DNA from: a candidate division CPR2 bacterium GW2011_GWC2_39_35
GTDB lineage: Bacteria; Patescibacteriota; CPR2
NCBI GenBank assembly: GCA_000995065.1
Contig: LBWX01000002.1
Span: 159,708 to 223,707, forward strand
Direction: 5' to 3'
DNA: 64,000 nucleotides
The position numbers were made by a program, and so were the translations under genes. The notes beneath the pieces are model-generated. The model searched no databases. It saw only the letters and a program-made list of their open reading frames with translations, and was not told where the DNA came from. This document shows, in pieces, positions 11,568 to 57,820 of this stretch (positions are counted from its first letter, which is position 1; each line of letters starts with the position of its first letter).

Positions 11568-11861
11568 ACTTACGCACCCGGTGCGTTAGCGCAGGCTAGA
11601 CGATAATTATAAAAAGGATAACTAAAGTGAGAATTAGTAAACTAAATGTTGTGCTTCTCCTTTTTCTTTGATTTCGGTAGATGTACTGAGGCGGCTGAAA
11701 TTCGTAGATAAGAGACGTAAGATGTCTCACAATTCCCCCTTTTTTTTATTTTTATTTTTGCTTTAACCGTACATTAACAAGCCATAAATGGCTTTACCTC
11801 ATTTAGAGTTACAAAATCTGAATCTTTAGAGAAAGAAAAATTGTAATAATTATTAATTAAG

Positions 11862-11926
11862 CCTAAACTTCTGGGTAGTCCGGAGACATTTTTTCTCCGG
11901 ACTACCCAGAAGTTTAGGCTGAAGAG
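11862..11926. terminator. Long perfect hairpin (27-bp stem, 8-nt loop) between convergent GT4 gene and histidine-kinase gene
   Basis: AGCCTAAACTTCTGGGTAGTCCGGAGA cattttt(t) TCTCCGGACTACCCAGAAGTTTAGGCT, followed by an A/T-rich run on both sides. Confidence 0.5.
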
Positions 11927-17082: not shown

Positions 17083-18003
17083 ATGGAAACAAACGAACAG
17101 CCAATAGCTTCGGAGCGGCCAAAAAGATCTTCAAGCCTGTATATTATTATCGGCATTATTGTTTTGGTAGTGGTTGGAGCCGGGGTTGGCGGATTTTTTA
17201 TTCTAAAAAAAGGTAAAGAAGTAGCCACGTCAGTTGGAACCGGCGCCATCGAAAAGGCTCTCAACGCAAACTGTAAATACGATGATAAAGACCTTTGTAA
17301 GCATCTAAATAATCTTAAAGTCTCTAAGGATATGTCCGGAACCTCTACCTCAACCGATAAAGACGGCAATAAATTTGAATCTACTTGGGAAATGCAGGGC
17401 GAGGATAGATCGCACTTTGTCGTAAGAGATAATGGCAAAGAGACAATGAACATGATTGCCATTGGCGATACCAATTATTCCAAAGATTACACTGACAATC
17501 AGTGGTGGAAGAAGACCGATAAGAAGGAAAAAGATCAGCTTTTAGGCACTATTAAGCCGGATTATGAAGAAAATTTTGAGGATTTAAAGCCCGAAGAAGA
17601 TAAAACTACCTATAAAAAAATTGGTAAAGAATCCTTTGGCAAACTCCAGTGTTTTAAATATCAAGTATTAGATCCTGCGAATACAGATACTACTGAATAT
17701 ATTTGGTTTGATGACAAAGAATACTTACTTCGAAAGTCCCGAAGCGAATCTAAAGACGGCAGTATAGCTGAGCAAACTTACTCTTACGACAAAATAAGCA
17801 TCAAAGAACCATCACCAACCAAAGAAGCCAAATCTGACATGGACATGTTTAATATCGGTACTGTCCCGCAAGTTGATACCCAACAGCTAGAGCAAGAGAT
17901 ACAAAATCAAATGAATAATGCCATAACGCCACCAGTAGATCAAGGAACCGTAGAACCTAATTACGATACGGGTTACGAAGTGCCAACTGAGTCTACTGAG
18001 TAG
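17083..18003 (+). CDS. Membrane-anchored extracytoplasmic protein, unknown function (possible LolA-like/DUF4367-like beta domain)
   Basis: Single N-terminal TM helix (LYIIIGIIVLVVVGAGVGGFFIL), followed by a hydrophilic K/D/T-rich domain with two Cys pairs. Confidence 0.5.
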   Translation: METNEQPIASERPKRSSSLYIIIGIIVLVVVGAGVGGFFILKKGKEVATSVGTGAIEKALNANCKYDDKDLCKHLNNLKVSKDMSGTSTSTDKDGNKFESTWEMQGEDRSHFVVRDNGKETMNMIAIGDTNYSKDYTDNQWWKKTDKKEKDQLLGTIKPDYEENFEDLKPEEDKTTYKKIGKESFGKLQCFKYQVLDPANTDTTEYIWFDDKEYLLRKSRSESKDGSIAEQTYSYDKISIKEPSPTKEAKSDMDMFNIGTVPQVDTQQLEQEIQNQMNNAITPPVDQGTVEPNYDTGYEVPTESTE

Positions 18004-18109
18004 AGCATCATCTATAAAAACCCTTTTCTACCACTTCTTCATAGTAACTTTCTTCAAAGAAAGACAAAAGACATTGTCAATGTTGATTTGGCTAACGACA
18101 GTGTAATTT

Positions 18110-18772
18110 TTAAACGATTATTTTAAGTTCGGTTTTGCCTGTTTCTAAGTCAACTATGGCGAAGGTAGATTGACGGCCAAAGTGGGAGGCAATTTCGCCG
18201 GGGTTTAAAAGTAGGCTGCATTGCCTATTATTATCATCATCCCCCGATCGGGTCGAGGGCGGGCTCTGAAATTGATTCAGGATTCTATCTTGAAAATGGG
18301 GAGATTCTAAATCTTGTTCTAAATGACGAATTGATTGGGATGATAGACGCATTTGCTCATGACATATCATCTTTATCCAGGGGGTATGGGTGTGCCCGTA
18401 AAATACAAAATCATAGGCGCCCGATTGAGCCATGTCTTTTGCTCTTTGGGGATAATGGGTGAATCCGATGGTCTTGCCGGCAAGCTTAATTTCGCCCAGA
18501 TCCCTAAAAACTGTTAAATTTTTGTATTCATTTTGAGCGTAAAATATCTCATCCGGCTCTCTTTCCGCATTTCCGAGGCAAGAAAAGACGTGCAAATTTG
18601 TTTGTGCCAGACGCATGACAGTTTTCTTAGTCGCAATGTCCCCGCAGCAGATGATAGTGTCAATTTTACACTTACTAATTTCTTCTAGAGTTTTATTTAG
18701 TTTGTCCATTCTGTCATGGATATCCGAGATCACGGCGATTTTCATGAGTATAAGTATAGCTAATTTCGGCAA
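18110..18772 (-). CDS. Metallophosphoesterase (YfcE/Vps29-like calcineurin-fold phosphodiesterase) carrying an in-frame ~47-aa repeat-derived insertion
   Basis: VISDIHD, CCGDI, GNAE and YGHTHTPW metal-binding motifs. The segment HEQMRLSSQ...DDDNNRQ interrupts the region between GHTH and the NPG motif. Confidence 0.7.
   Translation of the reverse strand: MPKLAILILMKIAVISDIHDRMDKLNKTLEEISKCKIDTIICCGDIATKKTVMRLAQTNLHVFSCLGNAEREPDEIFYAQNEYKNLTVFRDLGEIKLAGKTIGFTHYPQRAKDMAQSGAYDFVFYGHTHTPWIKMICHEQMRLSSQSIRHLEQDLESPHFQDRILNQFQSPPSTRSGDDDNNRQCSLLLNPGEIASHFGRQSTFAIVDLETGKTELKIIV
18221..18361. repeat. Palindromic dispersed-repeat copy (GTCATYC-type family) inserted in-frame within the metallophosphoesterase CDS
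   Basis: About 50 nt (atcccccgatcgggtcgagggcgggctctgaaattgattcaggattct) is ~88% identical to 26127-26176. The CTGAAnTTGATnCAGGAT module also occurs at 22586-22604. Confidence 0.55.
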
Positions 18773-19262
18773 TATTAAAAGCCCGTTTGAAGCTTTTATG
18801 CATGATCTTTAGTAGACATGTCTTTATTTAACAAAAGAAAAAAGGTTGCCTTTGCAGACCCGGATGGGGTAAAGCTACACGGCAACCTTTTCATTTGTTC
18901 TCAGCTTATCTGCCTCTTCTTACGGTGAGGTAAACAGCTGGATGTGAGCTGCGATCACGGAGTTCGGGTGGATAGTAATCCACCGTTTGCTTTGAGCGAA
19001 TGTGTGGTTTCTTTGCTTGTTGTTTTTTGATATTGCCGGTTGTCAATGATAGTGTCGTCATGTGATCATCTCCTGGTTCGATTTCTGTCTTTTGGGTGAT
19101 ACTTGTCTTGCTGTAAATTTATCCGGGTCTAACTGAATCGAAGACACTATATCATAAATACCCTTATTTGTCAATGGTTTTTTGGCTCTTTCCCTTTTTT
19201 GAATTTTTGGTAATAAAAAAATCCATTTGTATGGAACTTGAAATCATTTATAAAGTGAATCG

Positions 19263-19295
19263 ATCGCCGTAGGGGTACCGTTGCTACGGCGATCA
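19263..19295. terminator. Hairpin terminator downstream of the 19308..19979 (-) gene
   Basis: GATCGCCGTAG gggtaccgtt GCTACGGCGATC, an 11-bp perfect stem. Confidence 0.45.
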
Positions 19296-19307
19296 TTGTC
19301 TTTCGGC

Positions 19308-19979
19308 TTATTCTGGCTTGGGGAGAAAGACCTCATTAACGTATTTCTTCGCTACCTGTTGTAAATCAGATCTATTCCAGATGGAATCACCAGATAGCTC
19401 TGCACGAAGCGCTCCGCCAAAGAGACGAACTACAGTTTGGATGTCCTCTTCGGACCATTTTCGATCCTTTGGTAATGATGGTCGTGCTGTTTGTGCCGTC
19501 CTGGTCATGTTTTCAAAAATGTTTTTAACATACCAGGCTGTGGTTGGCCTTAAGGCGCCTAGACTTGTCTCAACACTAACCTCATCTTCAGTCCGATATG
19601 CTTTTTCGATGAGGATATCGATGACCTTGTCGTGAATCTGCCGGCGAATATCGTTGGTTAACTCGTCTTGCCCATAATCACCCTCCATATGAATGGTGAT
19701 AGAGCAATCACAGAAATCAATCTCGAATATAGACTCTATTTCGTATATGGCATTTAGGATCTCTGCATTAAGATCACCAACACCTAAAGTGCCGTCAGCA
19801 TCGATCTCTTCGCCAAGCCATTTTCGATAACTATAGAGGGCGTCAATTGGTTCCATGAGAGACCCTTGAAGATAGAACTCTGTCTCTTCGACAGGACCAA
19901 GGCCTAATCCCGAATAACCCTTCATTTTCCTCGTTTCCATTATGATGTTTGGGATATCCATACTGTTATTAGACTTCAC
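19308..19979 (-). CDS. Hypothetical protein (223 aa), no recognisable domain
   Basis: Long ORF with balanced composition, flanked by repeat elements and a large non-coding gap. No motif recognised. Confidence 0.45.
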   Translation of the reverse strand: MKSNNSMDIPNIIMETRKMKGYSGLGLGPVEETEFYLQGSLMEPIDALYSYRKWLGEEIDADGTLGVGDLNAEILNAIYEIESIFEIDFCDCSITIHMEGDYGQDELTNDIRRQIHDKVIDILIEKAYRTEDEVSVETSLGALRPTTAWYVKNIFENMTRTAQTARPSLPKDRKWSEEDIQTVVRLFGGALRAELSGDSIWNRSDLQQVAKKYVNEVFLPKPE

Positions 19980-20098
19980 CGTTTTTCACCTTCTTTCCTT
20001 AAGGTACCCAATATTGTTCTTAAGCCAAAAGAACAATTTATTATATAATAAAAACGATCATAAAGAAATACTTTTATTAGGGACCAAACTCACTTTTC

Positions 20099-20124
20099 CG
20101 TCATCCCCGTGCAGACGGGGAGGC
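20099..20124. repeat. Short GTCATYC-type hairpin element
   Basis: cGTCATCCCCGtgcagaCGGGGAGG has the same GTCAT + palindrome architecture as copies at 26203-26232 and 51193-51238. Confidence 0.4.
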
Positions 20125-20317
20125 ACGATGCTTCATTATCTCTCAAGACTTTCTGGAATTGTCACCCAAGAGTGACCTTATAAACAAAATATATAAAAAG
20201 CCCCGTCTTAAGGGGCTCTTTATACTTTATTCTTAATTCTAGTGAGAGGTAGTTCTCGATTTCACTTCGTTTCACTCGAACAATAAAACCTATTAGCTCA
20301 TTAGGCCATCCGACTAC

Positions 20318-22453
20318 TTACTTTTCATCCTTCTTAAGGGCGGCTTTTCGGGATAAGTTTAGTCGTCCCTGATGGTCGATTTCGGTGAGTTTTACCGGAA
20401 TAACATCGCCAACTTTTAGAACGTCGGAGACTTTTTCTACTCTTTCGGGGGAGATTTGAGAAACGTGAACCAAGCCTTCTTTCCCCGGTAGAATTTCTAC
20501 AAATGCGCCAAAGGCTTCTACTCTTTTTACGGTTCCTTGATAGACGGTACCGATCTCCGGCTCTTTTACAATGCCTTCGATAATCTTGATGGCTTCTTTA
20601 GCGGCTTCGGCTTCGACGGCGGAGATATTGATTTGGCCGGTATCCTGAATATCTATCTCTACACCGGTTTGAGCAATAATTTTATTGATGGTTTCGCCGC
20701 CTTTACCAATAACGTCCTTAATCTTCTCTGGCTTAATTTGGATAGTATAAACTCGCGGGGCATACTTGGAGATTTCTTCACGAGGCTTAAGTATAGCCTC
20801 GGTCATCTTACCAAGAATAAAGAGGCGGCCTTCTTTTGCTTGATTCAATGCTTCTTTTAGAATGTCTGCAGAGACTCCATTAATTTTCATATCCATCTGG
20901 AGTCCGGTAATACCGCTCTCGGTACCGGTAACTTTAAAGTCCATATCGCCTGCAAAGTCCTCTACGTCTCTAATATCCGATAAAACAACATATTTTTCAA
21001 TTTTACCATCTTTCTGCTTAGTCATTAGTCCCATGGCAATACCAGCAACCGGGGATTTAATCGGCACACCAGCGTCCATAAGAGCGAGAGTGGTGCCGCA
21101 GGTTCCGGCCATGGAGGTGGAGCCATTAGAAGATAAAATCTCCGAAACCACCCTAATGGTGTAGGGGAAATCTTCTTGGTCTGGCAAAACAGCCTCTAAA
21201 GATCTTTCGGCAATGTTTCCGTGGCCGATCTCTCGTCTTCCCACGCCTCTTAAGGGTTTGGATTCGCCGACAGAATATGGTGGGAAGTTGTAATGATGCA
21301 TAAATCGCTTTTCGCCCGATTCAAACATGGTGTCAATAATCTGAGCCATGCCCGGACCGGCTAGAGTACATATTGATAGAGCCTGGGTTAATCCTCTCGT
21401 AAATAAAGCCGAACCGTGAGTTCGAGGCAGCAAACCAACTTGCGAGGTAATTTTTCTGATTTCATTTGGCTTTCGGCCGTCCGGTCGTTCGCCTCTCTCA
21501 ATGATTGCTTGTCGAAGCTCCATGTCGATGGCCTTATTAAAGGCTTCGGAGATTTCCGCTTCTTCATAACTGTCTTTTAGGTCTTCAAAAACTTGAGACT
21601 CAAGATCGGCCAAAGCGCCTTCTCTTTGAATTTCGTCAGCATGAATAATATCTTTGCCTAGCTTGCCGTGTAAGAATTTTTCGACTGCCGAAACAGCATC
21701 TTTGCTTACTGTAAACAGCTCAAATTCCTTTGGTTTCTTACCAAGTTCCTTGGCCATTTTTTGTTGAAGTTCGATGGCCGGCTGCATGCCTTTAAGAGCC
21801 ATTGCCATAGCCTCAACCATTTGGTCTTCCGGAATCTCCTTAGCGGCAGATTCAACCATGATGATGCCGTCTTTGGTTCCGGCGACTACCAAATCAAGAG
21901 TTGAGTTTTCCATTTCGGAAATAGTAGGGTTAAGGGCTAACTTGCCGTCTATTATACCGATTCTGGAAGCAGCAATTGGACCTTCGAAAGGGGCGCCAGA
22001 AATAGATAAAGCGGCGGAGGCGGCAATAATACCTAAAAAGTCAGGATCATTCTCCTTATCAAAAGAAAGCGGGGTAACAATTACCTGAACATCATTTCGG
22101 TAGCCTTTGGGAAATAGCGGCCTAATTGGTCTGTCGATAAGGCGGGAAGTTAGAACGGCTTCTTCGGAAGGTCGCCCTTCTCTTTTAATAAAACGGCTTC
22201 CGGAGATTTTTCCGGCCGCGTAAGTTTTGTCTAGAAATTCCACCATTAGGGGGAAATAATCCATGCCTTCTCTGGTTAGGTCAGAGACTACGGCTGTGGC
22301 CATCAGTACGGTGTCGCCGTAGGTTAGCATGACGGCACCGGATGCTTGCATAGCAAAGTTTCCGGTTTCAATAATTAATTTTTTTCCGGCAAGTTCGGTT
22401 TCGAATACCTTATCGCCTTTTACAATAGAGTCCATAAAGTCCTCTCCTTTCAT
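20318..22453 (-). CDS. pnp: Polynucleotide phosphorylase (PNPase)
   Basis: Two RNase PH domains, KH (IKDVIGKGGETINKI) and S1 (GTVYQGTVKRVEAFGAFVEIL) domains. True start is probably the internal MDSIVKG (22435). Confidence 0.9.
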   Translation of the reverse strand: MKGEDFMDSIVKGDKVFETELAGKKLIIETGNFAMQASGAVMLTYGDTVLMATAVVSDLTREGMDYFPLMVEFLDKTYAAGKISGSRFIKREGRPSEEAVLTSRLIDRPIRPLFPKGYRNDVQVIVTPLSFDKENDPDFLGIIAASAALSISGAPFEGPIAASRIGIIDGKLALNPTISEMENSTLDLVVAGTKDGIIMVESAAKEIPEDQMVEAMAMALKGMQPAIELQQKMAKELGKKPKEFELFTVSKDAVSAVEKFLHGKLGKDIIHADEIQREGALADLESQVFEDLKDSYEEAEISEAFNKAIDMELRQAIIERGERPDGRKPNEIRKITSQVGLLPRTHGSALFTRGLTQALSICTLAGPGMAQIIDTMFESGEKRFMHHYNFPPYSVGESKPLRGVGRREIGHGNIAERSLEAVLPDQEDFPYTIRVVSEILSSNGSTSMAGTCGTTLALMDAGVPIKSPVAGIAMGLMTKQKDGKIEKYVVLSDIRDVEDFAGDMDFKVTGTESGITGLQMDMKINGVSADILKEALNQAKEGRLFILGKMTEAILKPREEISKYAPRVYTIQIKPEKIKDVIGKGGETINKIIAQTGVEIDIQDTGQINISAVEAEAAKEAIKIIEGIVKEPEIGTVYQGTVKRVEAFGAFVEILPGKEGLVHVSQISPERVEKVSDVLKVGDVIPVKLTEIDHQGRLNLSRKAALKKDEK

Positions 22454-22576
22454 GTAGGCTGATGGTCTAATAGCGTATGGCCTGGTTTTCTCTATATAGG
22501 CTATTTAGACTATTCGACCATATGGCCATTAGGGGCTAGGACTCAAAACAAGAAGTGAAACTGACAGAATATATGC

Positions 22577-22657
22577 TGTCATCCTGAACTTGATTCAGGA
22601 TCCCTCGCGTTATATGGAGAAGATTCCGGATCAAGTCCGGAATGACATTAATTCCGG
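22577..22657. repeat. MITE-like palindromic element in the rpsO-pnp intergenic region
   Basis: Left arm TGTCATCCTGAACTTGATTCAGGATCC, right arm ATTCCGGATCAAGTCCGGAATGACATT. These are imperfect inverted copies of each other separated by ~20 nt. Confidence 0.55.
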
Positions 22658-22831
22658 TTGATTCTAAAATCAGTTATTCTTCCAGGTTCTGACCCCTAGC
22701 CAAATTATTAATAAACAATAAGCAAAAAACAAAAAACAGTTTTAATTACATTTCTAACATAAACTAAGTCTATTTATGCATGACGAATCTATAATTTCCT
22801 GATTTTTGTTCATTGTTTATTGTTCTTTGTT

Positions 22832-23101
22832 TTATCTTCTTAAGCCAAGATCTTTAATTACGTTATCGTATTTGTCTCGGTTTTTCTTAGACAGATAATC
22901 TAAGAGTCTTCGTCTCTTACCAACCATCTTAAGTAAACCACGTCTTGAGTGTTCGTCCTTCTTGTGAGTTCTTAGGTGGTCAGTCAGCTTTTTTATTTGT
23001 TCTGAGAAAATCGCAATTTGAACTTCTGGGGATCCGGTATCATTGGTTGAAGTCCCAAACTTTTCGACGATCTTTTCTTTGTCTTGTTTTCTTAGTGCCA
23101 T
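22832..23101 (-). CDS. rpsO: 30S ribosomal protein S15
   Basis: [16 protein letters not shown]...[29 protein letters not shown] is canonical S15. The rpsO-pnp order is the classical one. Confidence 0.9.
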
Positions 23102-23331
23102 AACTTCCTCTTGTTATTACTTTGAACTCATTTTACCATGTTTTCCACAGGATTTCAAGTGGGAGTATACGAAAAATAATTCAAAATTCAAAAATCAAAA
23201 GTCAAAATGACAGATGAAAAATGTAAAAAGGTTAGCAATACAGAGGCTTTTCTTATCATAATTAAGAATATTTGGTATGATATCGATAATATGAAAATCA
23301 AATTATCCCTTTTTTGCATGGTAAAACGGGA

Positions 23332-23360
23332 TTGACGAAAACAAAATAATTTGATAAGAT
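23332..23360 (+). promoter_or_regulatory. Sigma70-like promoter for the UDG gene (TTGACG-17-TAAGAT)
   Basis: TTGACG at 23332-23337, 17-nt spacer, TAAGAT at 23355-23360. Lies ~45 nt upstream of the ATG. Confidence 0.4.
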
Positions 23361-23403
23361 ATAGTCAACTTTTAAACGGACTCCCAATTAACTTAATTTA
23401 TTT

Positions 23404-24048
23404 ATGATTCCAGAATCTCAAATTGAATCTTGTTCCTCATTGGAGGAACTAAATGAGCTTGTAGCAAAATGCACTCGGTGCGATCTCTTTAAGGATGCCA
23501 TAAATCCAGTGCCGGGCGATGGCAACCCAGAGGCAGAAATTGTTTTTATTGGTGAGGGGCCGGGTAAAAAGGAAGATGAGATCGGTAAGCCATTTGTGGG
23601 CGCTGCCGGTAAATTGCTTAAAGAAATGTTAGAGGAAAATGGATATAAAAGGGAAGATGTATTTATCGCAAATGTCGTAAAACACCGCCCGCCAAATAAT
23701 AGAGATCCGCTGCCAAATGAGGTGGAAGCCTGTTTCCCATATTTAAAAAGGCAGCTTCAGCTTATAAATCCAAAACTTATTGTGTTTTTAGGCCGCCACT
23801 CTCTAAACCGCTTTTTCCCAGACCTAAAGATTTCTGAAGTTCATGGTAAGGCTTTTAGAAAAGAGATCCCTTGGCTTGGGCGAAAACAAGTATTCATGGC
23901 CCTTTTTCATCCGGCTGCCGCTTTATATAGAGGCAGTATGAAAGAGACGCTTAAAGCAGATTTCGCGAAACTGCCAAAACTTATCGAAAAAATTAATAAT
24001 GATAATAATGACTCTAAATCAAAAAAAGACCAGCCCGAACTCTTTTAG
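23404..24048 (+). CDS. Uracil-DNA glycosylase, family 4 (Fe-S type)
   Basis: CTRCDL cysteine cluster, then GEGPGKKEDEIGKPFVGAAGKLL (family-4 UDG motif A/B) and HPAAALY near the C-terminus. Confidence 0.8.
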   Translation: MIPESQIESCSSLEELNELVAKCTRCDLFKDAINPVPGDGNPEAEIVFIGEGPGKKEDEIGKPFVGAAGKLLKEMLEENGYKREDVFIANVVKHRPPNNRDPLPNEVEACFPYLKRQLQLINPKLIVFLGRHSLNRFFPDLKISEVHGKAFRKEIPWLGRKQVFMALFHPAAALYRGSMKETLKADFAKLPKLIEKINNDNNDSKSKKDQPELF

Positions 24049-24078
24049 GCGGGTCAAAGAAAGGATTAAAAAGAAAAA

Positions 24079-25872
24079 ATGGAAGAGCAATTAAGTAAAG
24101 AACAAGGTAGAGAGCCACAATCTATACCGCAAAGATCGGCGGTGCCACAAAGACCAGGAAACCCTGGTAAAAGAACACAGCCAAGACAGCAAAGACCAAA
24201 TGATGGCCAAAATTTAAGAATCATTCCCCTTGGCGGAATGGGTGAAATTGGTAAAAACATGTATGTTCTGGAATATGGAAACGATATTTTGGTTATTGAT
24301 GCCGGGTTTATGTTTCCTGAGGCTGATATGCCAGGAGTGGACTATGTTATTCCTGACGTTAAATATTTAGAAGAAAACAAGCATAAAGTAAAAGGATACC
24401 TTATTACACACGCTCACGAAGACCATGTTGGCGCTTTACCATACGTTCTGCCAAAGGTTCCGGCTCCAATTTATGCCCCCAAGCTTACGGCAGCATTAAT
24501 TCAGAACAAATTAAAAGAATTTAAGATCATGGGTCAGCTTGGCATTAGAACCGTTGATCCGGACAAAGATGAAAAGCTTCAATTTGGAGCGCTTCAGGTT
24601 GAGTTTATTAGAATGGTTCATTCTATTCCGGACGCTGTAGCTATTGTAATTCACACCCCCGTTGGAACTGTTATTGCAACTGGCGATTTTAGGTTTGATT
24701 TTACTCCGGTAGACAAGAAGGTTCCAAATATTCACCGCTTAGTAGAGCTTTCCAAAGAAGGTGTTTTGGCACTGCTTTCTGACTCTACCGGCGCCGAATC
24801 GCCAGGTTTTTCGGTAACAGAAAGCGCACTACAAAAAAATTTCGACAACATTTGGACTTCTGCAAGCGGACGTATTGTAGTTGCTTCATTTGCTTCACAG
24901 ATAAACAGAATTCAACAATTTATTAATGCCACCGCGTATTCCGGCCGAAAACTGGCTTTTTCCGGAAGAAGTTTGCTTAATAACGTGGAAGTGGCTGTAA
25001 GGCTTGGTTACTTAAAAATACCTTCCGGTATGATCATTAAAGTTCAGGATATTAATCGTTACCCCGACAATCAAGTAACTATAGTTTCTACCGGATCACA
25101 AGGCGAATCTATGTCGGCTCTTGCAAGAATGGCATCCGGCGATCACAAACAAATCAAGATTAAAAGAGGAGATACCGTTGTTTTCTCTTCTTCCCCTGTC
25201 CCGGGTAACGAAGACAAGATACGAAAGGTTATCGATGACTTGTTTAGACAGGGTGCAGAAGTTGTATACGATGAAAAGGACGATATTAAAACCCACGTTT
25301 CCGGACACCCCAAACAGGAAGAGCTGAAACTAATGCTTTCACTTGTAAAGCCAAAATATTTTATTCCTTATCATGGTGAATATCATCATTTAATTCACCA
25401 CCGCGATATAGCGATAGAAATGAATATCCCCGAAAAAAATATATTCGTGGTTGATAACGGCCAGGTTATAGAGTTTGATGCAAACGGCGCCAGACTAAAC
25501 GGAAAAGTGCCGCATGGCGAGGTCTTAGTTGACGGGCTTGGCGTTGGCGACGTTCAAAACATTGTGCTAAGAGACCGAAATATTATGTCAACTGACGGCA
25601 TTTTTGTGGTTATCGCGACGGTAGATAAGGTTTCCGGACGGCTTCTTACTAGCCCCGATATTATCTCCAGAGGCTTTATCTACATGAGAGAATCTGAACA
25701 GTTGGTAAATAAAGCGCGTCAAGAAGTCCGAAGAATCTTATCCAAAAAAGAAGGTGAGCCGCCGGCAAACTGGATCAATATGAAAAACAAGGTCCGAGAC
25801 GAAATCGGCCAATTCCTCTACAACAACACCAAGAGACAGCCGATGGTGATTCCGGTTATTATAGAAGTGTAG
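24079..25872 (+). CDS. rnj: Ribonuclease J (metallo-beta-lactamase/beta-CASP) with ~45-aa Q/P-rich N-terminal extension
   Basis: IIPLGGMGEIGKNM start of the RNase J core, HAHEDHVGALP zinc motif, beta-CASP and C-terminal domain. Total 597 aa. Confidence 0.85.
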   Translation: MEEQLSKEQGREPQSIPQRSAVPQRPGNPGKRTQPRQQRPNDGQNLRIIPLGGMGEIGKNMYVLEYGNDILVIDAGFMFPEADMPGVDYVIPDVKYLEENKHKVKGYLITHAHEDHVGALPYVLPKVPAPIYAPKLTAALIQNKLKEFKIMGQLGIRTVDPDKDEKLQFGALQVEFIRMVHSIPDAVAIVIHTPVGTVIATGDFRFDFTPVDKKVPNIHRLVELSKEGVLALLSDSTGAESPGFSVTESALQKNFDNIWTSASGRIVVASFASQINRIQQFINATAYSGRKLAFSGRSLLNNVEVAVRLGYLKIPSGMIIKVQDINRYPDNQVTIVSTGSQGESMSALARMASGDHKQIKIKRGDTVVFSSSPVPGNEDKIRKVIDDLFRQGAEVVYDEKDDIKTHVSGHPKQEELKLMLSLVKPKYFIPYHGEYHHLIHHRDIAIEMNIPEKNIFVVDNGQVIEFDANGARLNGKVPHGEVLVDGLGVGDVQNIVLRDRNIMSTDGIFVVIATVDKVSGRLLTSPDIISRGFIYMRESEQLVNKARQEVRRILSKKEGEPPANWINMKNKVRDEIGQFLYNNTKRQPMVIPVIIEV

Positions 25873-26124
25873 GGTAGGTTAATTGGTTAATAGGCTAACG
25901 GGCGAATAGGTTTTTAGATTCCCTCTCCCTTGAGTCGAGAGGGTTAGGGTGAGGGGGCTAAACAATTCAAAGTTCAAAATGCAGCCCTAAATGCCAAGGG
26001 TGTATCAGATACAGATAATGTTTATAAGAACAGAGAGACAATCTTTTTAAGCAAAACCTTGCGAATGCGAGGCAAAATTCAAAAGTTAAGAGGCTCAACT
26101 CACTGGGCCTCTTTTGATTTACCG

Positions 26125-26232
26125 TTATCCCCCAATCGGCTCGAGGGCAGGCTCTGAACTTGATACAGGATCTTCTCCATTTATCACTTCTGCCATCTTG
26201 TCGTCATTCCCGACCCGATCGGGAATCCAGGA
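26125..26232. repeat. Composite palindromic dispersed-repeat copy (GTCATYC-type family)
   Basis: Module atcccccaatcggctcgagggcaggctctgaacttgatacaggatc is homologous to 18232-18280. The terminal hairpin is GTCATTCCCGAcccgaTCGGGAATCCAGG. Confidence 0.5.
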
Positions 26233-26286
26233 TTTTTTTCCCATTAAGTTTGTTTCCTATTTCCTATTTCCTGCTAAAATATATCC

Positions 26287-26934
26287 ATGTTCAAACTTAT
26301 CATTTTTGATTTAGACGGCACTTTAGTGGATAGTACACAGCTTTCGAAGATGACCTATTTTGAAGTTCTTCGTAAAATGGGTTATGACCCGGAACTATAT
26401 TGGGAAACACATCGGAAGTCATCGGGGCTTCCCTATGAGGAGCAATTAAGGCGTGCAAATCCCGAACTGGTAGTTAGAAAAGACGAATACTTGAGACTGT
26501 ATAAAGAGGCGCATAAGACGCTTATTGGAAAGGCGGTCGTAGAATACCCCGGTGTTGACGCCATGCTAAAGTCAATTACAATTCCAAAAGCCATCATGAC
26601 TGCAAAAATCGGTTCTTCGGCGAATGTTATGATAAAGGATATCTTAAAAGTAGACTTCGACTATATCTCGACTCACGAAATGAGACAACACCACAAACCG
26701 AGTCCCGAACCTTTGCTTGAAATCTGTGAGAGATTTAACGTAAAGCCGGAAGAAGCGATTTATGTCGGAGATGGTGTTCACGATGTCGAATGTGCTAAAA
26801 ATGCCGGCGTTGTTTCCGTAGCGGTAGCGTGGGGCAACTACTATACAGCCGAAGAACTCGAAAACTTAAAGCCGGATTTTCTCGTTTATAAGCCGGAGGA
26901 GATCCTAGAGATCCTAAACAGAATTTCTAATTGA
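26287..26934 (+). CDS. HAD-superfamily hydrolase (phosphoglycolate phosphatase/beta-PGM-like subfamily IA)
   Basis: Motif I IFDLDGTLVDS, and motif IV-like VGDGVHDVECAKNAG. Confidence 0.7.
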   Translation: MFKLIIFDLDGTLVDSTQLSKMTYFEVLRKMGYDPELYWETHRKSSGLPYEEQLRRANPELVVRKDEYLRLYKEAHKTLIGKAVVEYPGVDAMLKSITIPKAIMTAKIGSSANVMIKDILKVDFDYISTHEMRQHHKPSPEPLLEICERFNVKPEEAIYVGDGVHDVECAKNAGVVSVAVAWGNYYTAEELENLKPDFLVYKPEEILEILNRISN

Positions 26935-48724: not shown

Positions 48725-48732
48725 AGGAGAAA

Positions 48733-48846
48733 ATGTCAAATTACAAAGCTCAAATGCCAAATCAAATCCTAAGTTCAAATGTCAAATTATTTGATATTAA
48801 GTCATTTAAAATTCATTTGGTATTTTGATTTTGACATTTGATATTT
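48733..48846. repeat. Family-X ~115-bp inverted-repeat element (aaatgtcaaat...tttgacattt) between pilB and pilT
   Basis: Homologous along its length to 51261-51373 and 57698-57815. Terminal arms TGTCAAAT / ATTTGACA. Confidence 0.55.
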
Positions 48847-48864
48847 TTAACTTCGGGAGGGAAT

Positions 48865-51238: not shown

Positions 51239-51260
51239 TGCAGGTGAAAAAAGGAGTTTA

Positions 51261-51373
51261 ATGTCAAATGTCAAAGCTCAAATTTCAAATCAAGTTCTAA
51301 TGTTAAATGCTTTAAATTGGTCATTAAGTCATTTGTCATTCATTTGATATTTGTAATTTGGCATTTGGATTTA
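51261..51373. repeat. Family-X inverted-repeat element directly upstream of the major pilin gene
   Basis: atgtcaaatgtcaaagctcaaat...gtcatt...catttgatatttg...ttggcatttggattt aligns with 48733-48846 and 57698-57815. Confidence 0.55.
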
Positions 51374-51393
51374 ATAATATCTAGGAGGGAATA

Positions 51394-57697: not shown

Positions 57698-57815
57698 AAA
57701 TGTCAAATGACAAAGCTCAAATGTCAAATCAATTTTAAAAAATCTAAATGTTAAAAATTTAGGCATTTAGTCATTAATTATTCATTTGAGATTTAGATTT
57801 TGACATTTGGATTTA
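57698..57815. repeat. Family-X inverted-repeat element between convergent rsmH and BON-domain genes
   Basis: aaatgtcaaatgacaaagctcaaatgtcaaatcaa...catttgagatttagattttgacatttggattt. Third copy of the family. Confidence 0.55.
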
Positions 57816-57820
57816 ACAAA

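What the first reader, a model, noticed from the sequence alone, without database searches (positions are those of the whole stretch)
18221..18361. Palindromic dispersed repeat inserted in-frame inside a metallophosphoesterase gene (RPE-like behaviour)
The YfcE-like phosphoesterase (18110..18772, minus strand) reads through without stops. It nevertheless carries a ~47-residue segment (HEQMRLSSQSIRHLEQDLESPHFQDRILNQFQSPPSTRSGDDDNNRQ) between the GHTH motif and the downstream NPG motif. This family normally has only a short loop there. The DNA of exactly this segment is a copy of a dispersed intergenic repeat, with ~88% identity over 50 nt to 26127-26176. It also shares the CTGAAnTTGATnCAGGAT module with the rpsO-pnp spacer element at 22586-22604. 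In-frame colonisation of coding sequence by selfish palindromic elements is well known for Rickettsia palindromic elements. I am not aware that it is a described feature of this kind of genome.
Basis: seen in the sequence. Interest (0 to 1): 0.72.

Follow-up and report, generated by a model that had tools for sequence, protein, structure and literature searches.

The report
Palindromic repeat inserted in-frame in enzyme gene
A small phosphodiesterase gene of an uncultured groundwater bacterium (candidate division CPR2) carries a 47-codon in-frame insert, at least two thirds of it a decayed pair of short "CGTC-tagged" palindromic repeats, the class that includes some Rickettsia palindromic elements; the phenomenon is known elsewhere, but I found no description of it for this bacterial group.

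Summary
The MJ0936/YfcE-type phosphodiesterase gene (18110-18745, minus strand) is open and carries 141 nt (47 aa) that none of the 119 other listed homologues has. The two closest (73% and 70% identical) are 164 aa, exactly 211 minus 47.

A covariance model built only from copies in other genomes hits 18231-18287 over its full length (59.9 bits, E about 3e-16). This is the best hit in the window, ahead of the intergenic copy at 26119-26175.

The insert core (18235-18328) is an inverted pair of units with the anatomy of the CGTC-tagged REP superfamily (Di Nocera 2013). That superfamily includes Rickettsia RPE-4/RPE-6 and Neisseria dRS3, and in-frame genic insertions are already described for it. 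So "RPE-like" is right in kind. "Palindromic" is only partly right: one unit's stem is broken and the whole insert folds no better than shuffled sequence. A further 47 nt of the insert are unassigned.

AlphaFold places the insert as a low-confidence excursion between two core beta-strands, and all catalytic residues are intact.

Verdict: a new member of a known kind, in a new host lineage. In passing, the same module sits in the same reading frame in other Patescibacteria genes. One loop of a PEP-synthase-like protein holds insertions in 42 of 107 homologues.

The parts
18110..18745 (-). MJ0936/YfcE-family metallophosphoesterase gene, 211 aa, host of the insert.
   Evidence: Pfam PF12850 scores E 1.8e-26, but only residues 1-125 align to model positions 1-122 of 154. 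PDB MJ0936 scores E 2.8e-12, with the match split around the insert. The AlphaFold model's best fold match is 1s3l_A, E 5.7e-14, TM 0.85 normalised to the target. The invariant metal-site residues D8, H10, D36, N59, H97, H118 and H120 are all present.
18221..18361 (-). Lineage-specific in-frame insert of 141 nt (47 aa, H129-Q175); ends uncertain by about 3 nt.
   Evidence: Protein alignments A1/A3 and DNA alignment A2 each show a single gap in all relatives. Only 2 of the 6 reading frames of this DNA lack stops, and the gene uses one of them. pLDDT is 42-72 here against above 94 in the core, between strands 123-128 and 176-181.
18235..18284 (+). Two-hairpin CGTC-type module, antisense to the gene. 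Tag CATC 18235-38, AT, hairpin 1 at 18241-47/18253-59, linker CGGGCT, hairpin 2 at 18266-70/18276-80, then GAT.
   Evidence: Model R1, built only from 28 copies in other genomes and metagenomes, hits 18231-18287 over its full length at 59.9 bits, E about 3e-16, the best hit in the window. It is 91.5% identical over 47 nt to copies in a Berkelbacteria MAG (L016) and in bacterium CG2_30_37_16 (L021).
18285..18302 (.). Spacer between the two units of the inverted pair.
   Evidence: No significant match elsewhere. Spacers between paired units vary in sequence in the other loci and in the literature (PMC3733652, section 14).
18303..18328 (-). Decayed single CGTC unit in the gene's own orientation: CGTC AT TTAGAA caaga TTTAGA AT C. 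Its stem is now broken.
   Evidence: It matches CGTCATTCTGAA-N5-TTCAGAATC with 3 mismatches, against 0.00 expected in shuffles. Its position and orientation match the partner unit GATTCTGA...TCAGAATGACG that follows the module in many other loci.
18329..18361 (.). Unassigned part of the insert. It contains tag-like strings (CGTCTAT, TGTCAT on the gene strand) but no scorable unit.
   Evidence: No hit with R1 and none by blastn-short against 487 kb of fetched loci. Reading it as further decayed units is my inference only.
18221..18234 (.). Unassigned 14 nt at the other end of the insert.
   Evidence: No significant match. It could be host sequence shifted by an ambiguous alignment boundary.
26119..26175 (+). 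Intergenic copy of the same two-hairpin module, downstream of the RNase J gene.
   Evidence: R1 scores 56.1 bits, E about 4.5e-15; blastn to the insert is.
26203..26226 (+). Canonical CGTC unit: CGTC ATTCCCGA cccga TCGGGAAT cca.
   Evidence: Perfect 8-bp stem starting AT, 5-nt loop, tail CCA.
22578..22646 (.). Inverted pair of canonical units in the rpsO-pnp spacer: TGTC ATCCTGAA cttga TTCAGGAT on + and TGTC ATTCCGGA cttga TCCGGAAT on -. The tags face outward.
   Evidence: Both stems are perfect. R1 gives partial hits, E 4e-5 and 0.011. The region's RNA fold z-score is -2.45.
20100..20122 (+). CGTC unit with one stem mismatch and a 4-nt loop, downstream of pnp.
   Evidence: Hairpin scan.

Best explanation
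An inverted pair of CGTC-tagged REP-type palindromic units landed in the phosphodiesterase gene of an ancestor of this CPR2 species. One unit is a composite two-hairpin module, and the pair probably came with further fragments. This happened after the split from the relatives that are now about 70% identical.

The site is the turn of the beta-hairpin that follows the GHTH metal-binding motif. The insertion survived for three reasons. Its length is a multiple of three. Its orientation and frame is one of only two without stop codons. The site is a tolerant surface loop. It is now fixed in the population and is translated as a hydrophilic, probably flexible 47-residue excursion that leaves the catalytic core intact.

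Since insertion the DNA has drifted. One stem is broken and the tag of the other unit has one change, so the insert no longer behaves as a palindrome.

Shown: lineage specificity, family membership of the core, an open frame and an intact active site.
Predicted: the loop location.
Inferred: translation, neutrality and the way the element moved. No transposase is known for CGTC REPs.
For: - Relatives lack the insert, and the length difference is exactly 47 aa or 141 nt.
- An independent covariance model hits the insert at E about 3e-16. The partner unit matches with 3 mismatches against 0.00 expected.
- The first hairpin of the family covaries: 6 of 7 pairs change on both sides, a figure reached by 0 of 500 shuffles. 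The family is therefore held as a hairpin, as REPs are.
- Unit anatomy fits the published definition: CGTC/TGTC tag, 8-bp stem starting AT, 4-5-nt loop, CCA-like tail, pairing in inverted orientation (PMC3733652).
- That paper describes in-frame genic REPs, including clusters that encode 43-82 aa.
- The core of the model has pLDDT above 94 and the insert 42-72, between two strands. The fold matches MJ0936, and the catalytic residues are conserved.
- The gene is identical on at least 24 contigs, including strains with different flanks.
- The same module sits in the same frame in a PEP-synthase-like gene of another Patescibacterium (KILNQVQSLPSTRLGDD in place of RILNQFQSPPSTRSGDD). Its 88%-identical homologue lacks that peptide.
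Against: - 47 of the 141 nt cannot be assigned to any repeat unit.
- No target-site duplication or exact junction could be defined, because the nearest empty site is only about 73% identical.
- Only six units are visible in the 64 kb available, and the genome-wide copy number could not be measured. The genome scan did not return this organism.
- Nothing shows that the protein is expressed or active.
- The mobility mechanism of CGTC REPs is unknown, so 'insertion' could also have been recombination or gene conversion with an intergenic copy.
Confidence: 0.85

Rival explanations
1. The gene is a pseudogene. The insertion inactivated the enzyme and the frame is open only by chance.
For: There is no expression or activity evidence. 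An insertion of random length, frame and orientation would be a multiple of three and open about one time in nine (1/3 times 2/6), which is not negligible.
Against: The full 211-codon frame is open, and every invariant catalytic residue of the family is retained. The core is modelled at pLDDT above 94 with the insert outside it. The unit stems have decayed, so time has passed, yet no stop or frameshift has accumulated. The gene is identical in strains whose flanks differ.
Confidence: 0.1
2. The segment is removed before the mature protein is made, either from the RNA as an intron-like element or from the protein as an intein-like element.
For: The insert is bounded by inverted tag-like strings and contains small hairpins.
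Against: No Rfam family matches at the gathering threshold or at E<=5 in this region. The fold is no better than shuffles (z 0.07). At 141 nt it is far below the size of self-splicing introns, and 47 aa is far below mini-inteins (general knowledge). The frame is open and its length is a multiple of three, which removal would not require.
Confidence: 0.02
3. The insert is an adaptive gain. The repeat-encoded peptide gives the enzyme a new interaction or regulatory surface and is kept by selection on the protein.
For: It is fixed and identical in all assemblies. The DNA palindrome has decayed while the frame stayed open. The model predicts two short helices, 136-145 and 151-158.
Against: pLDDT is low, 42-72. 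No sequence variation is available to test selection. Unrelated repeat peptides occupy tolerant loops in other proteins, which points to tolerance rather than function. Di Nocera et al. argue the same.
Confidence: 0.1
4. The direction is reversed. The coding segment is original, and the intergenic copies are fragments derived from it or chance look-alikes.
For: None beyond the bare similarity.
Against: The module occurs in 9 genome stretches and 33 metagenome stretches from unrelated organisms, nearly all intergenic. None of the 119 other listed homologues of the enzyme has it. A model built without window sequences scores E about 3e-16.
Confidence: 0.01

Closest known systems
CGTC-tagged REPs (families CGTC-1 to -4; Di Nocera, De Gregorio and Rocco 2013, PMC3733652), including Rickettsia conorii RPE-4 and RPE-6
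   Same: The units have an unpaired CGTC/TGTC tag, an 8-bp stem whose first two pairs are A-T and T-A, a 4- or 5-nt loop and a CCA-like tail. They occur as inverted pairs with variable spacers, lie mostly between genes transcribed in the same direction, and occasionally insert in frame. Published clusters encode 43-82 aa, and this insert encodes 47.
   Different: The host is a CPR2/Patescibacteria bacterium; the paper reports 5 phyla, mostly alpha-Proteobacteria. The main unit here is a composite: a canonical unit split by a roughly 24-nt nested hairpin plus linker (rank 3 alignment). The sections of the paper I read do not describe that form. I did not compare sequences with the RPE-4/-6 consensus.
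Long Rickettsia palindromic elements (RPE-1 type, about 150 bp; reviewed in PMC10969869)
   Same: In-frame insertion of a selfish palindromic repeat into unrelated housekeeping genes, tolerated at the protein surface, and of similar length (141 nt).
   Different: RPE-1 is a single long palindrome that encodes a conserved peptide. This insert is a pair or cluster of short REP units, and as a whole it no longer folds. I tested no sequence relationship.
Neisseria dRS3 repeats and intergenic mosaic elements (CGTC-1 in PMC3733652)
   Same: The unit type ATTCCC-N-GGGAAT with a GTC tag is present here at 26203-26226. It also occurs inside a PEP-synthase-like gene of another Patescibacterium (L056).
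   Different: In Neisseria these repeats cluster in intergenic mosaics and serve as targets for phage and IS integration (my own knowledge). Neither was examined here.
GTAG REPs and REPINs mobilised by RAYT transposases
   Same: Short tagged hairpins that often occur as inverted doublets, are dispersed, and are sometimes intragenic.
   Different: The tag is CGTC rather than GTAG. No dedicated transposase is known for CGTC REPs (PMC3733652), and I did not look for one in the window.
Coxiella burnetii QMITE elements (PMC5896051, listed; mentioned in PMC10969869)
   Same: Small non-autonomous repeats that can contribute coding sequence to host genes.
   Different: These are MITEs with terminal inverted repeats. 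I did not read that paper in detail and made no sequence comparison.

Membership tests
CGTC-tagged REP superfamily (Di Nocera 2013) | Unpaired terminal tag CGTC (TGTC or CCTC allowed) | tested here: met
   The window units at 22578, 22646(-), 26203 and 20100 carry TGTC, TGTC, CGTC and CGTC. In the insert, the right unit has CGTC and the left unit has CATC, one change. Most of the 28 outside copies have CGTC or TGTC, and a few have AGTC or no recognisable tag.
CGTC-tagged REP superfamily (Di Nocera 2013) | Stem of 8-9 bp whose first two pairs are A-T and T-A, with a loop of 4-5 nt | tested here: inconclusive
   Met by the four intergenic units, which have 8-bp stems and 4- or 5-nt loops. In the insert, the left unit is a composite with 7-bp and 5-bp hairpins after the AT (one C-A mismatch by my reading), and the right unit pairs at only 5 of 8 positions. 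I read this as decay after insertion, which is an inference.
CGTC-tagged REP superfamily (Di Nocera 2013) | Short unpaired tail, consensus CCA | tested here: inconclusive
   The tails are CCA at 26227, CCC at 22602 and TTC after the insert module. Outside copies mostly have C followed by variable bases.
CGTC-tagged REP superfamily (Di Nocera 2013) | Many dispersed copies per genome, mostly intergenic, often as inverted pairs | tested here: inconclusive
   The 64 kb holds six units or modules. Five are intergenic between genes transcribed in the same direction, and one inverted pair lies at 22578-22646. A genome-wide count was not possible, because the genome scan did not return this organism. 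Copies in other genomes are mostly intergenic.
CGTC-tagged REP superfamily (Di Nocera 2013) | The hairpin is maintained by compensatory change across copies | tested here: met
   In hairpin 1 of the module, 6 of 7 pairs change on both sides and 96.7% of cells are paired. None of 500 shuffles reaches this, and slid controls fall to 18-56% paired.
Rickettsia palindromic elements (RPE) | In-frame insertion into conserved genes, absent from orthologues | tested here: met
Rickettsia palindromic elements (RPE) | Sequence homology to an RPE family consensus | not tested
The link rests on the paper's assignment of RPE-4/-6 to the CGTC families.
MITE (miniature inverted-repeat transposable element) | Terminal inverted repeats plus a target-site duplication | tested here: inconclusive
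   The inverted pair has CATCAT...ATGACG at its ends. GATGATA occurs on both sides of the insert, but the two copies are out of register with the reading frame, and the nearest empty site is too diverged to define the junctions. No duplication could be established.
MJ0936/YfcE metallophosphoesterase (Pfam PF12850) | Family profile match, the five metal-binding motifs and the fold | tested here: met
   PF12850 scores E 1.8e-26. D8, H10, D36, N59, H97, H118 and H120 are invariant in 60 homologues and present here. Foldseek's best hit is 1s3l_A, E 5.7e-14.
Structured RNA, self-splicing intron or diversity-generating retroelement repeat | Rfam match or significant fold; for a DGR, adenine-specific differences between repeat copies | tested here: not met
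   No Rfam hit and fold z-score 0.07. By direct reading, the eight differences between 18231-18283 and 26119-26171 are not adenine-specific.

The most novel reading that the evidence does not exclude
Short tagged hairpin repeats (CGTC REPs and at least one other GC-rich hairpin type) may be a frequent, recurrent source of new peptide segments in Patescibacteria proteins, concentrated at particular loops.

Among 107 close PEP-synthase-N-domain homologues, 65 have a 4-residue loop and 42 carry 14-51 extra residues at the same position. Many of these are recognisable translations of different repeat units. The DNA was confirmed for three of them.

This would mean either a targeted insertion mechanism or very heavy repeat traffic filtered by loop tolerance. 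Stop codons in the loop of the hairpin would be edited away by point mutation: both genic copies carry TCTAG where the four distinct intergenic copies of the same CCAA/TTGAG stem subfamily carry TCAAG.
Probability: 0.4. Interest if true: 0.6.

Novelty: new member of a known kind. Interest (0 to 1): 0.42.

Why it matters
- It extends in-frame colonisation of genes by REP-type palindromes to the Candidate Phyla Radiation. The literature I read describes it for Rickettsia, Opitutus, Thauera and others.
- It shows that one composite module is shared almost unchanged by distant lineages (CPR2, Berkelbacteria, other Patescibacteria, Dehalococcoidia). That bears on the unresolved question of how CGTC REPs spread, since no transposase is known for them.
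- For annotation, repeat-encoded segments can split domain matches. Here the Pfam match stops at residue 125. They also produce spurious small ORFs over intergenic copies, such as 26114-26314 in this window.
- If the hot-spot pattern in PEP-synthase-like proteins is general, these repeats are a measurable source of loop insertions in very small genomes.

Tried and rejected
- A protein search with the 47-aa peptide alone found nothing, because the word index needs three shared 5-mers. This says nothing either way.
- Rfam gave nothing relevant, either at gathering scores over the whole window or at E<=5 over 18000-26400. The only related item is a non-significant match of the rpsO-pnp element to Wolbachia sRNA 46.
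- The idea of a DGR template/variable repeat pair was dropped. The differences are not adenine-specific and the module is found in many phyla.
- I looked for a target-site duplication. GATGATA flanks the insert on both sides, but the copies are out of frame register, and removing element plus one copy does not restore the frame. I rejected it as evidence (direct reading).
- The genome-contig scan did not return this organism, so no genome-wide copy count was possible.
- R1 found no module in 24.5 kb of DNA from the two closest relatives. The sample is too small to interpret.
- The 47 unassigned nt had no match in 487 kb of fetched loci.
- GC content does not mark the insert: 0.42 for both the insert and the rest of the gene.
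- The composite module is absent from IMG/VR viral contigs. The simple unit is present in 29 stretches, but I did not establish whether those are truly viral.

Full report
**What is there**

The window comes from a candidate division CPR2 bacterium. The exact 211-aa protein is named as such in NCBI and occurs on at least 24 contigs of groundwater assemblies from NCBI, ENA and JGI.

The ORF at 18110-18772(-) is open. Homologues start at MKIAV, so the gene is 18110-18745. It is an MJ0936/YfcE-type metallophosphoesterase:
- Pfam PF12850 scores E 1.8e-26, but the match stops at residue 125.
- PDB MJ0936 scores E 2.8e-12, with the match split in two.
- The residues that are invariant in 60 homologues (D8, H10, D36, N59, H97, H118, H120) are all present.

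**The insert is real and lineage-specific**

Of 837 homologues, the 120 best are listed. Only the window's own protein is 211 aa. The two closest (73% and 70% identical over aligned positions) are 164 aa, exactly 47 fewer.

The DNA alignment with those two genes shows one 141-nt gap between ...TGGATAAAGATGATATGTCAT and AGCCTACTTTTAAAC.... The ends are uncertain by about 3 nt.

The gene sequence is identical in all nine fetched copies. These include two MAGs whose flanks differ from the window at 52 and 68 positions. The insertion is therefore fixed in this population and is not an assembly artefact.

**The insert DNA belongs to a repeat family**

Within the window, 18239-18283 matches 26127-26171 at 88.9% (E 1e-8). 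The 18-nt string CTGAANTTGATNCAGGAT occurs three times against 0.05 expected.

I scanned public collections for GGCTCTGAANTTGATNCAGGAT. The scan found 9 stretches in other genomes (Berkelbacteria, other Patescibacteria, a Dehalococcoidia MAG, unclassified bins) and 33 metagenome stretches. One metagenome stretch is this same locus (L042).

Lined up, these stretches show a conserved module:
(C/T)GTC AT CCC-[variable 7-bp hairpin]-GGCAGGCT-CTGAA CTTGA TTCAG-GATC

The variable hairpin changes by compensatory substitutions. Six of 7 pairs change on both sides and 96.7% of cells are paired; none of 500 shuffles reaches this.

A covariance model built from 28 outside copies, with no window sequence, gives these hits in the window:
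- the insert (18231-18287): 59.9 bits, E about 3e-16, full length, the top hit;
- the intergenic copy at 26119-26175: 56.1 bits;
- the simple units at 22573-22605 and 22619-22651: weaker partial matches.

In many outside loci the module is followed, after a variable spacer, by an inverted partner GATTCTGA..TCAGAATGAC(G/A). The insert has the same arrangement. 18303-18328(-) reads CGTCATTTAGAACAAGATTTAGAATC, which matches the partner consensus with 3 mismatches against 0.00 expected. Its stem is now broken.

The inverted pair 18235-18328 (94 nt) accounts for two thirds of the insert. The remaining 47 nt (18221-18234 and 18329-18361) match nothing I hold.

**What family this is**

Di Nocera et al. 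2013 (PMC3733652) define CGTC-tagged REPs by these features:
- an unpaired CGTC tag, with TGTC allowed;
- a stem of 8-9 bp whose first two pairs are A-T and T-A;
- a loop of 4-5 nt;
- a short tail near CCA;
- frequent inverted dimers with 20-100-bp spacers.

A hairpin scan of the window finds four such units:

| Position | Sequence |
|---|---|
| 22578-22601(+) | TGTC ATCCTGAA cttga TTCAGGAT ccc |
| 22623-22646(-) | TGTC ATTCCGGA cttga TCCGGAAT |
| 26203-26226(+) | CGTC ATTCCCGA cccga TCGGGAAT cca |
| 20100-20122(+) | one stem mismatch, 4-nt loop |

The two-hairpin module is the first of these unit types with about 24 nt (a nested hairpin plus linker) inserted after ATCC. The model alignment to 22573-22605 shows this directly.

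The same paper assigns Rickettsia RPE-4 and RPE-6 and Neisseria dRS3 to this superfamily. It reports REPs inside genes in several species, with clusters encoding 43-82 aa, and it finds no dedicated transposase for CGTC REPs. A 2024 review repeats that in-frame fusion is a known outcome for RPEs and other small elements (PMC10969869). Two full-text searches found no relevant paper on such repeats in Patescibacteria or the CPR.

**Why it is tolerated**

Only two of the six reading frames of the insert DNA are free of stops, and the gene uses one of them.

AlphaFold, run with a 60-sequence alignment, gives mean pLDDT 88.7. The core scores above 94. Residues 129-175 score 42-72 and form an excursion between strands 123-128 and 176-181. 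The best fold match is MJ0936 (1s3l_A, E 5.7e-14, TM 0.85 normalised to the target).

The peptide is rich in Q, S, R and D. As RNA or DNA the insert folds no better than shuffled sequence (z 0.07 and 0.75). "Palindromic" therefore describes its origin rather than its present state.

**Wider context found on the way**

The same module sits in the same frame in two genes on metagenome contigs from one sample series:
- A PEP-synthase-N-domain protein, L024/L054, reads KILNQVQSLPSTRLGDD. Its 88%-identical homologue and the solved structure 9dae lack this segment.
- A 1062-residue open reading frame (it starts at the end of the fetched stretch), apparently a surface protein, carries it between two similar C-terminal repeat segments (L050). 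This case was not checked against homologues.

Both genic copies carry the loop TCTAG. The four distinct intergenic copies of the same CCAA/TTGAG stem subfamily carry TCAAG, which would read TGA in that frame.

Among 107 parsed homologues of the PEP-synthase-like protein, 65 have a 4-residue loop before VAVRSSAT and 42 have 14-51 residues there. Many of the longer loops are recognisable repeat translations: LDSRLRGND, DSRFRGND, ILKQVQDD, LRSGRND, and a ...P..KGEG type.

Besides L024, I confirmed the DNA for two of them. L055 carries TGTC ATCCTGAA cttgt TTCAGGAT ccc, and L056 carries TGTC ATTCCCGC gaaa GCGGGAAT. Both are antisense to the gene.

**Verdict**

This is a decayed cluster of CGTC-type REP units fixed in frame in a tolerant loop of a housekeeping enzyme.

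The kind of event is already described in other phyla. What is new is the host lineage, the composite module shared across distant lineages, and possibly the frequency of such insertions in Patescibacteria.

Translation, neutrality and the mechanism of movement remain inferences.

Noticed in passing
Proteins P0121-P0240; loci L024, L054, L055, L056: One loop of PEP-synthase-N-domain (PF01326) proteins in Magasanikbacteria-like Patescibacteria is a hot spot. 65 of 107 homologues have 4 residues there, and 42 have 14-51 residues, many of them translations of different hairpin repeats. At the DNA level three independent CGTC-type units were confirmed, all antisense to the gene.
   Followed up: partly
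L024:1022-1078 and L050:2890-2946 versus L028, L032, L037, L039: Both genic copies of the module have the hairpin loop TCTAG. The four distinct intergenic copies of the same CCAA/TTGAG stem subfamily have TCAAG, which would give a TGA stop in the frame the genes use.
   Followed up: partly
L050:2-3187: A 1062-residue open reading frame (it starts at the end of the fetched stretch), apparently a surface protein, carries the same module in the same frame (KILNQVQSLPSTRLGDD) between two similar C-terminal repeat segments. It was not checked against homologues.
   Followed up: no
window 25920-25958: A different GC-rich hairpin repeat (TCCCTCTCCCTTGAGTCGAGAGGGTTAGGGTGAGGGGG) lies downstream of the RNase J gene. 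Peptides of the form ...P..KGEG in the PEP-synthase loops look like translations of this repeat type.
   Followed up: no
window 26114-26314: A 66-aa ORF in the ORF list runs across the intergenic repeat copies (YPPIGSRAGSELDTGS...SFPTRSGIQ). It is most likely a spurious ORF created by the stop-free forward frame of the module.
   Followed up: no
window 22557-22665: The inverted pair of units in the rpsO-pnp spacer gives a weak, non-significant Rfam match to Wolbachia sRNA 46 (20.7 bits, E 2.6). Wolbachia is reported to carry CGTC-4 repeats, so that sRNA may be repeat-derived.
   Followed up: no
IMG/VR loci L057-L085: The simple unit GTCATCCTGAAnTTGnTTCAGGAT occurs in 29 stretches of viral-catalogue contigs, with up to 4 copies on one contig. 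The composite module occurs in none. I did not check whether these contigs are really viral.
   Followed up: no
window 11857-11923: A near-perfect hairpin: 30-nt arms, 97% complementary, 7-nt loop.
   Followed up: no
window 48732-48850, 51260-51377, 57699-57819: An AT-rich repeat family (AATGTCAAAT... and its inverted partner) in three places, each made of a 50-nt and a 64-nt block. It is unrelated to the CGTC units.
   Followed up: no
L014:484-540 and L015:3039-3095 (Dehalococcoidia MAG): The second hairpin and linker of the module are identical to the Patescibacteria copies. The first part is different (TGTCCCCTTGTCGAGTATAGGTCAAGGGG), so the conserved half of the module crosses phylum boundaries.
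   Followed up: no
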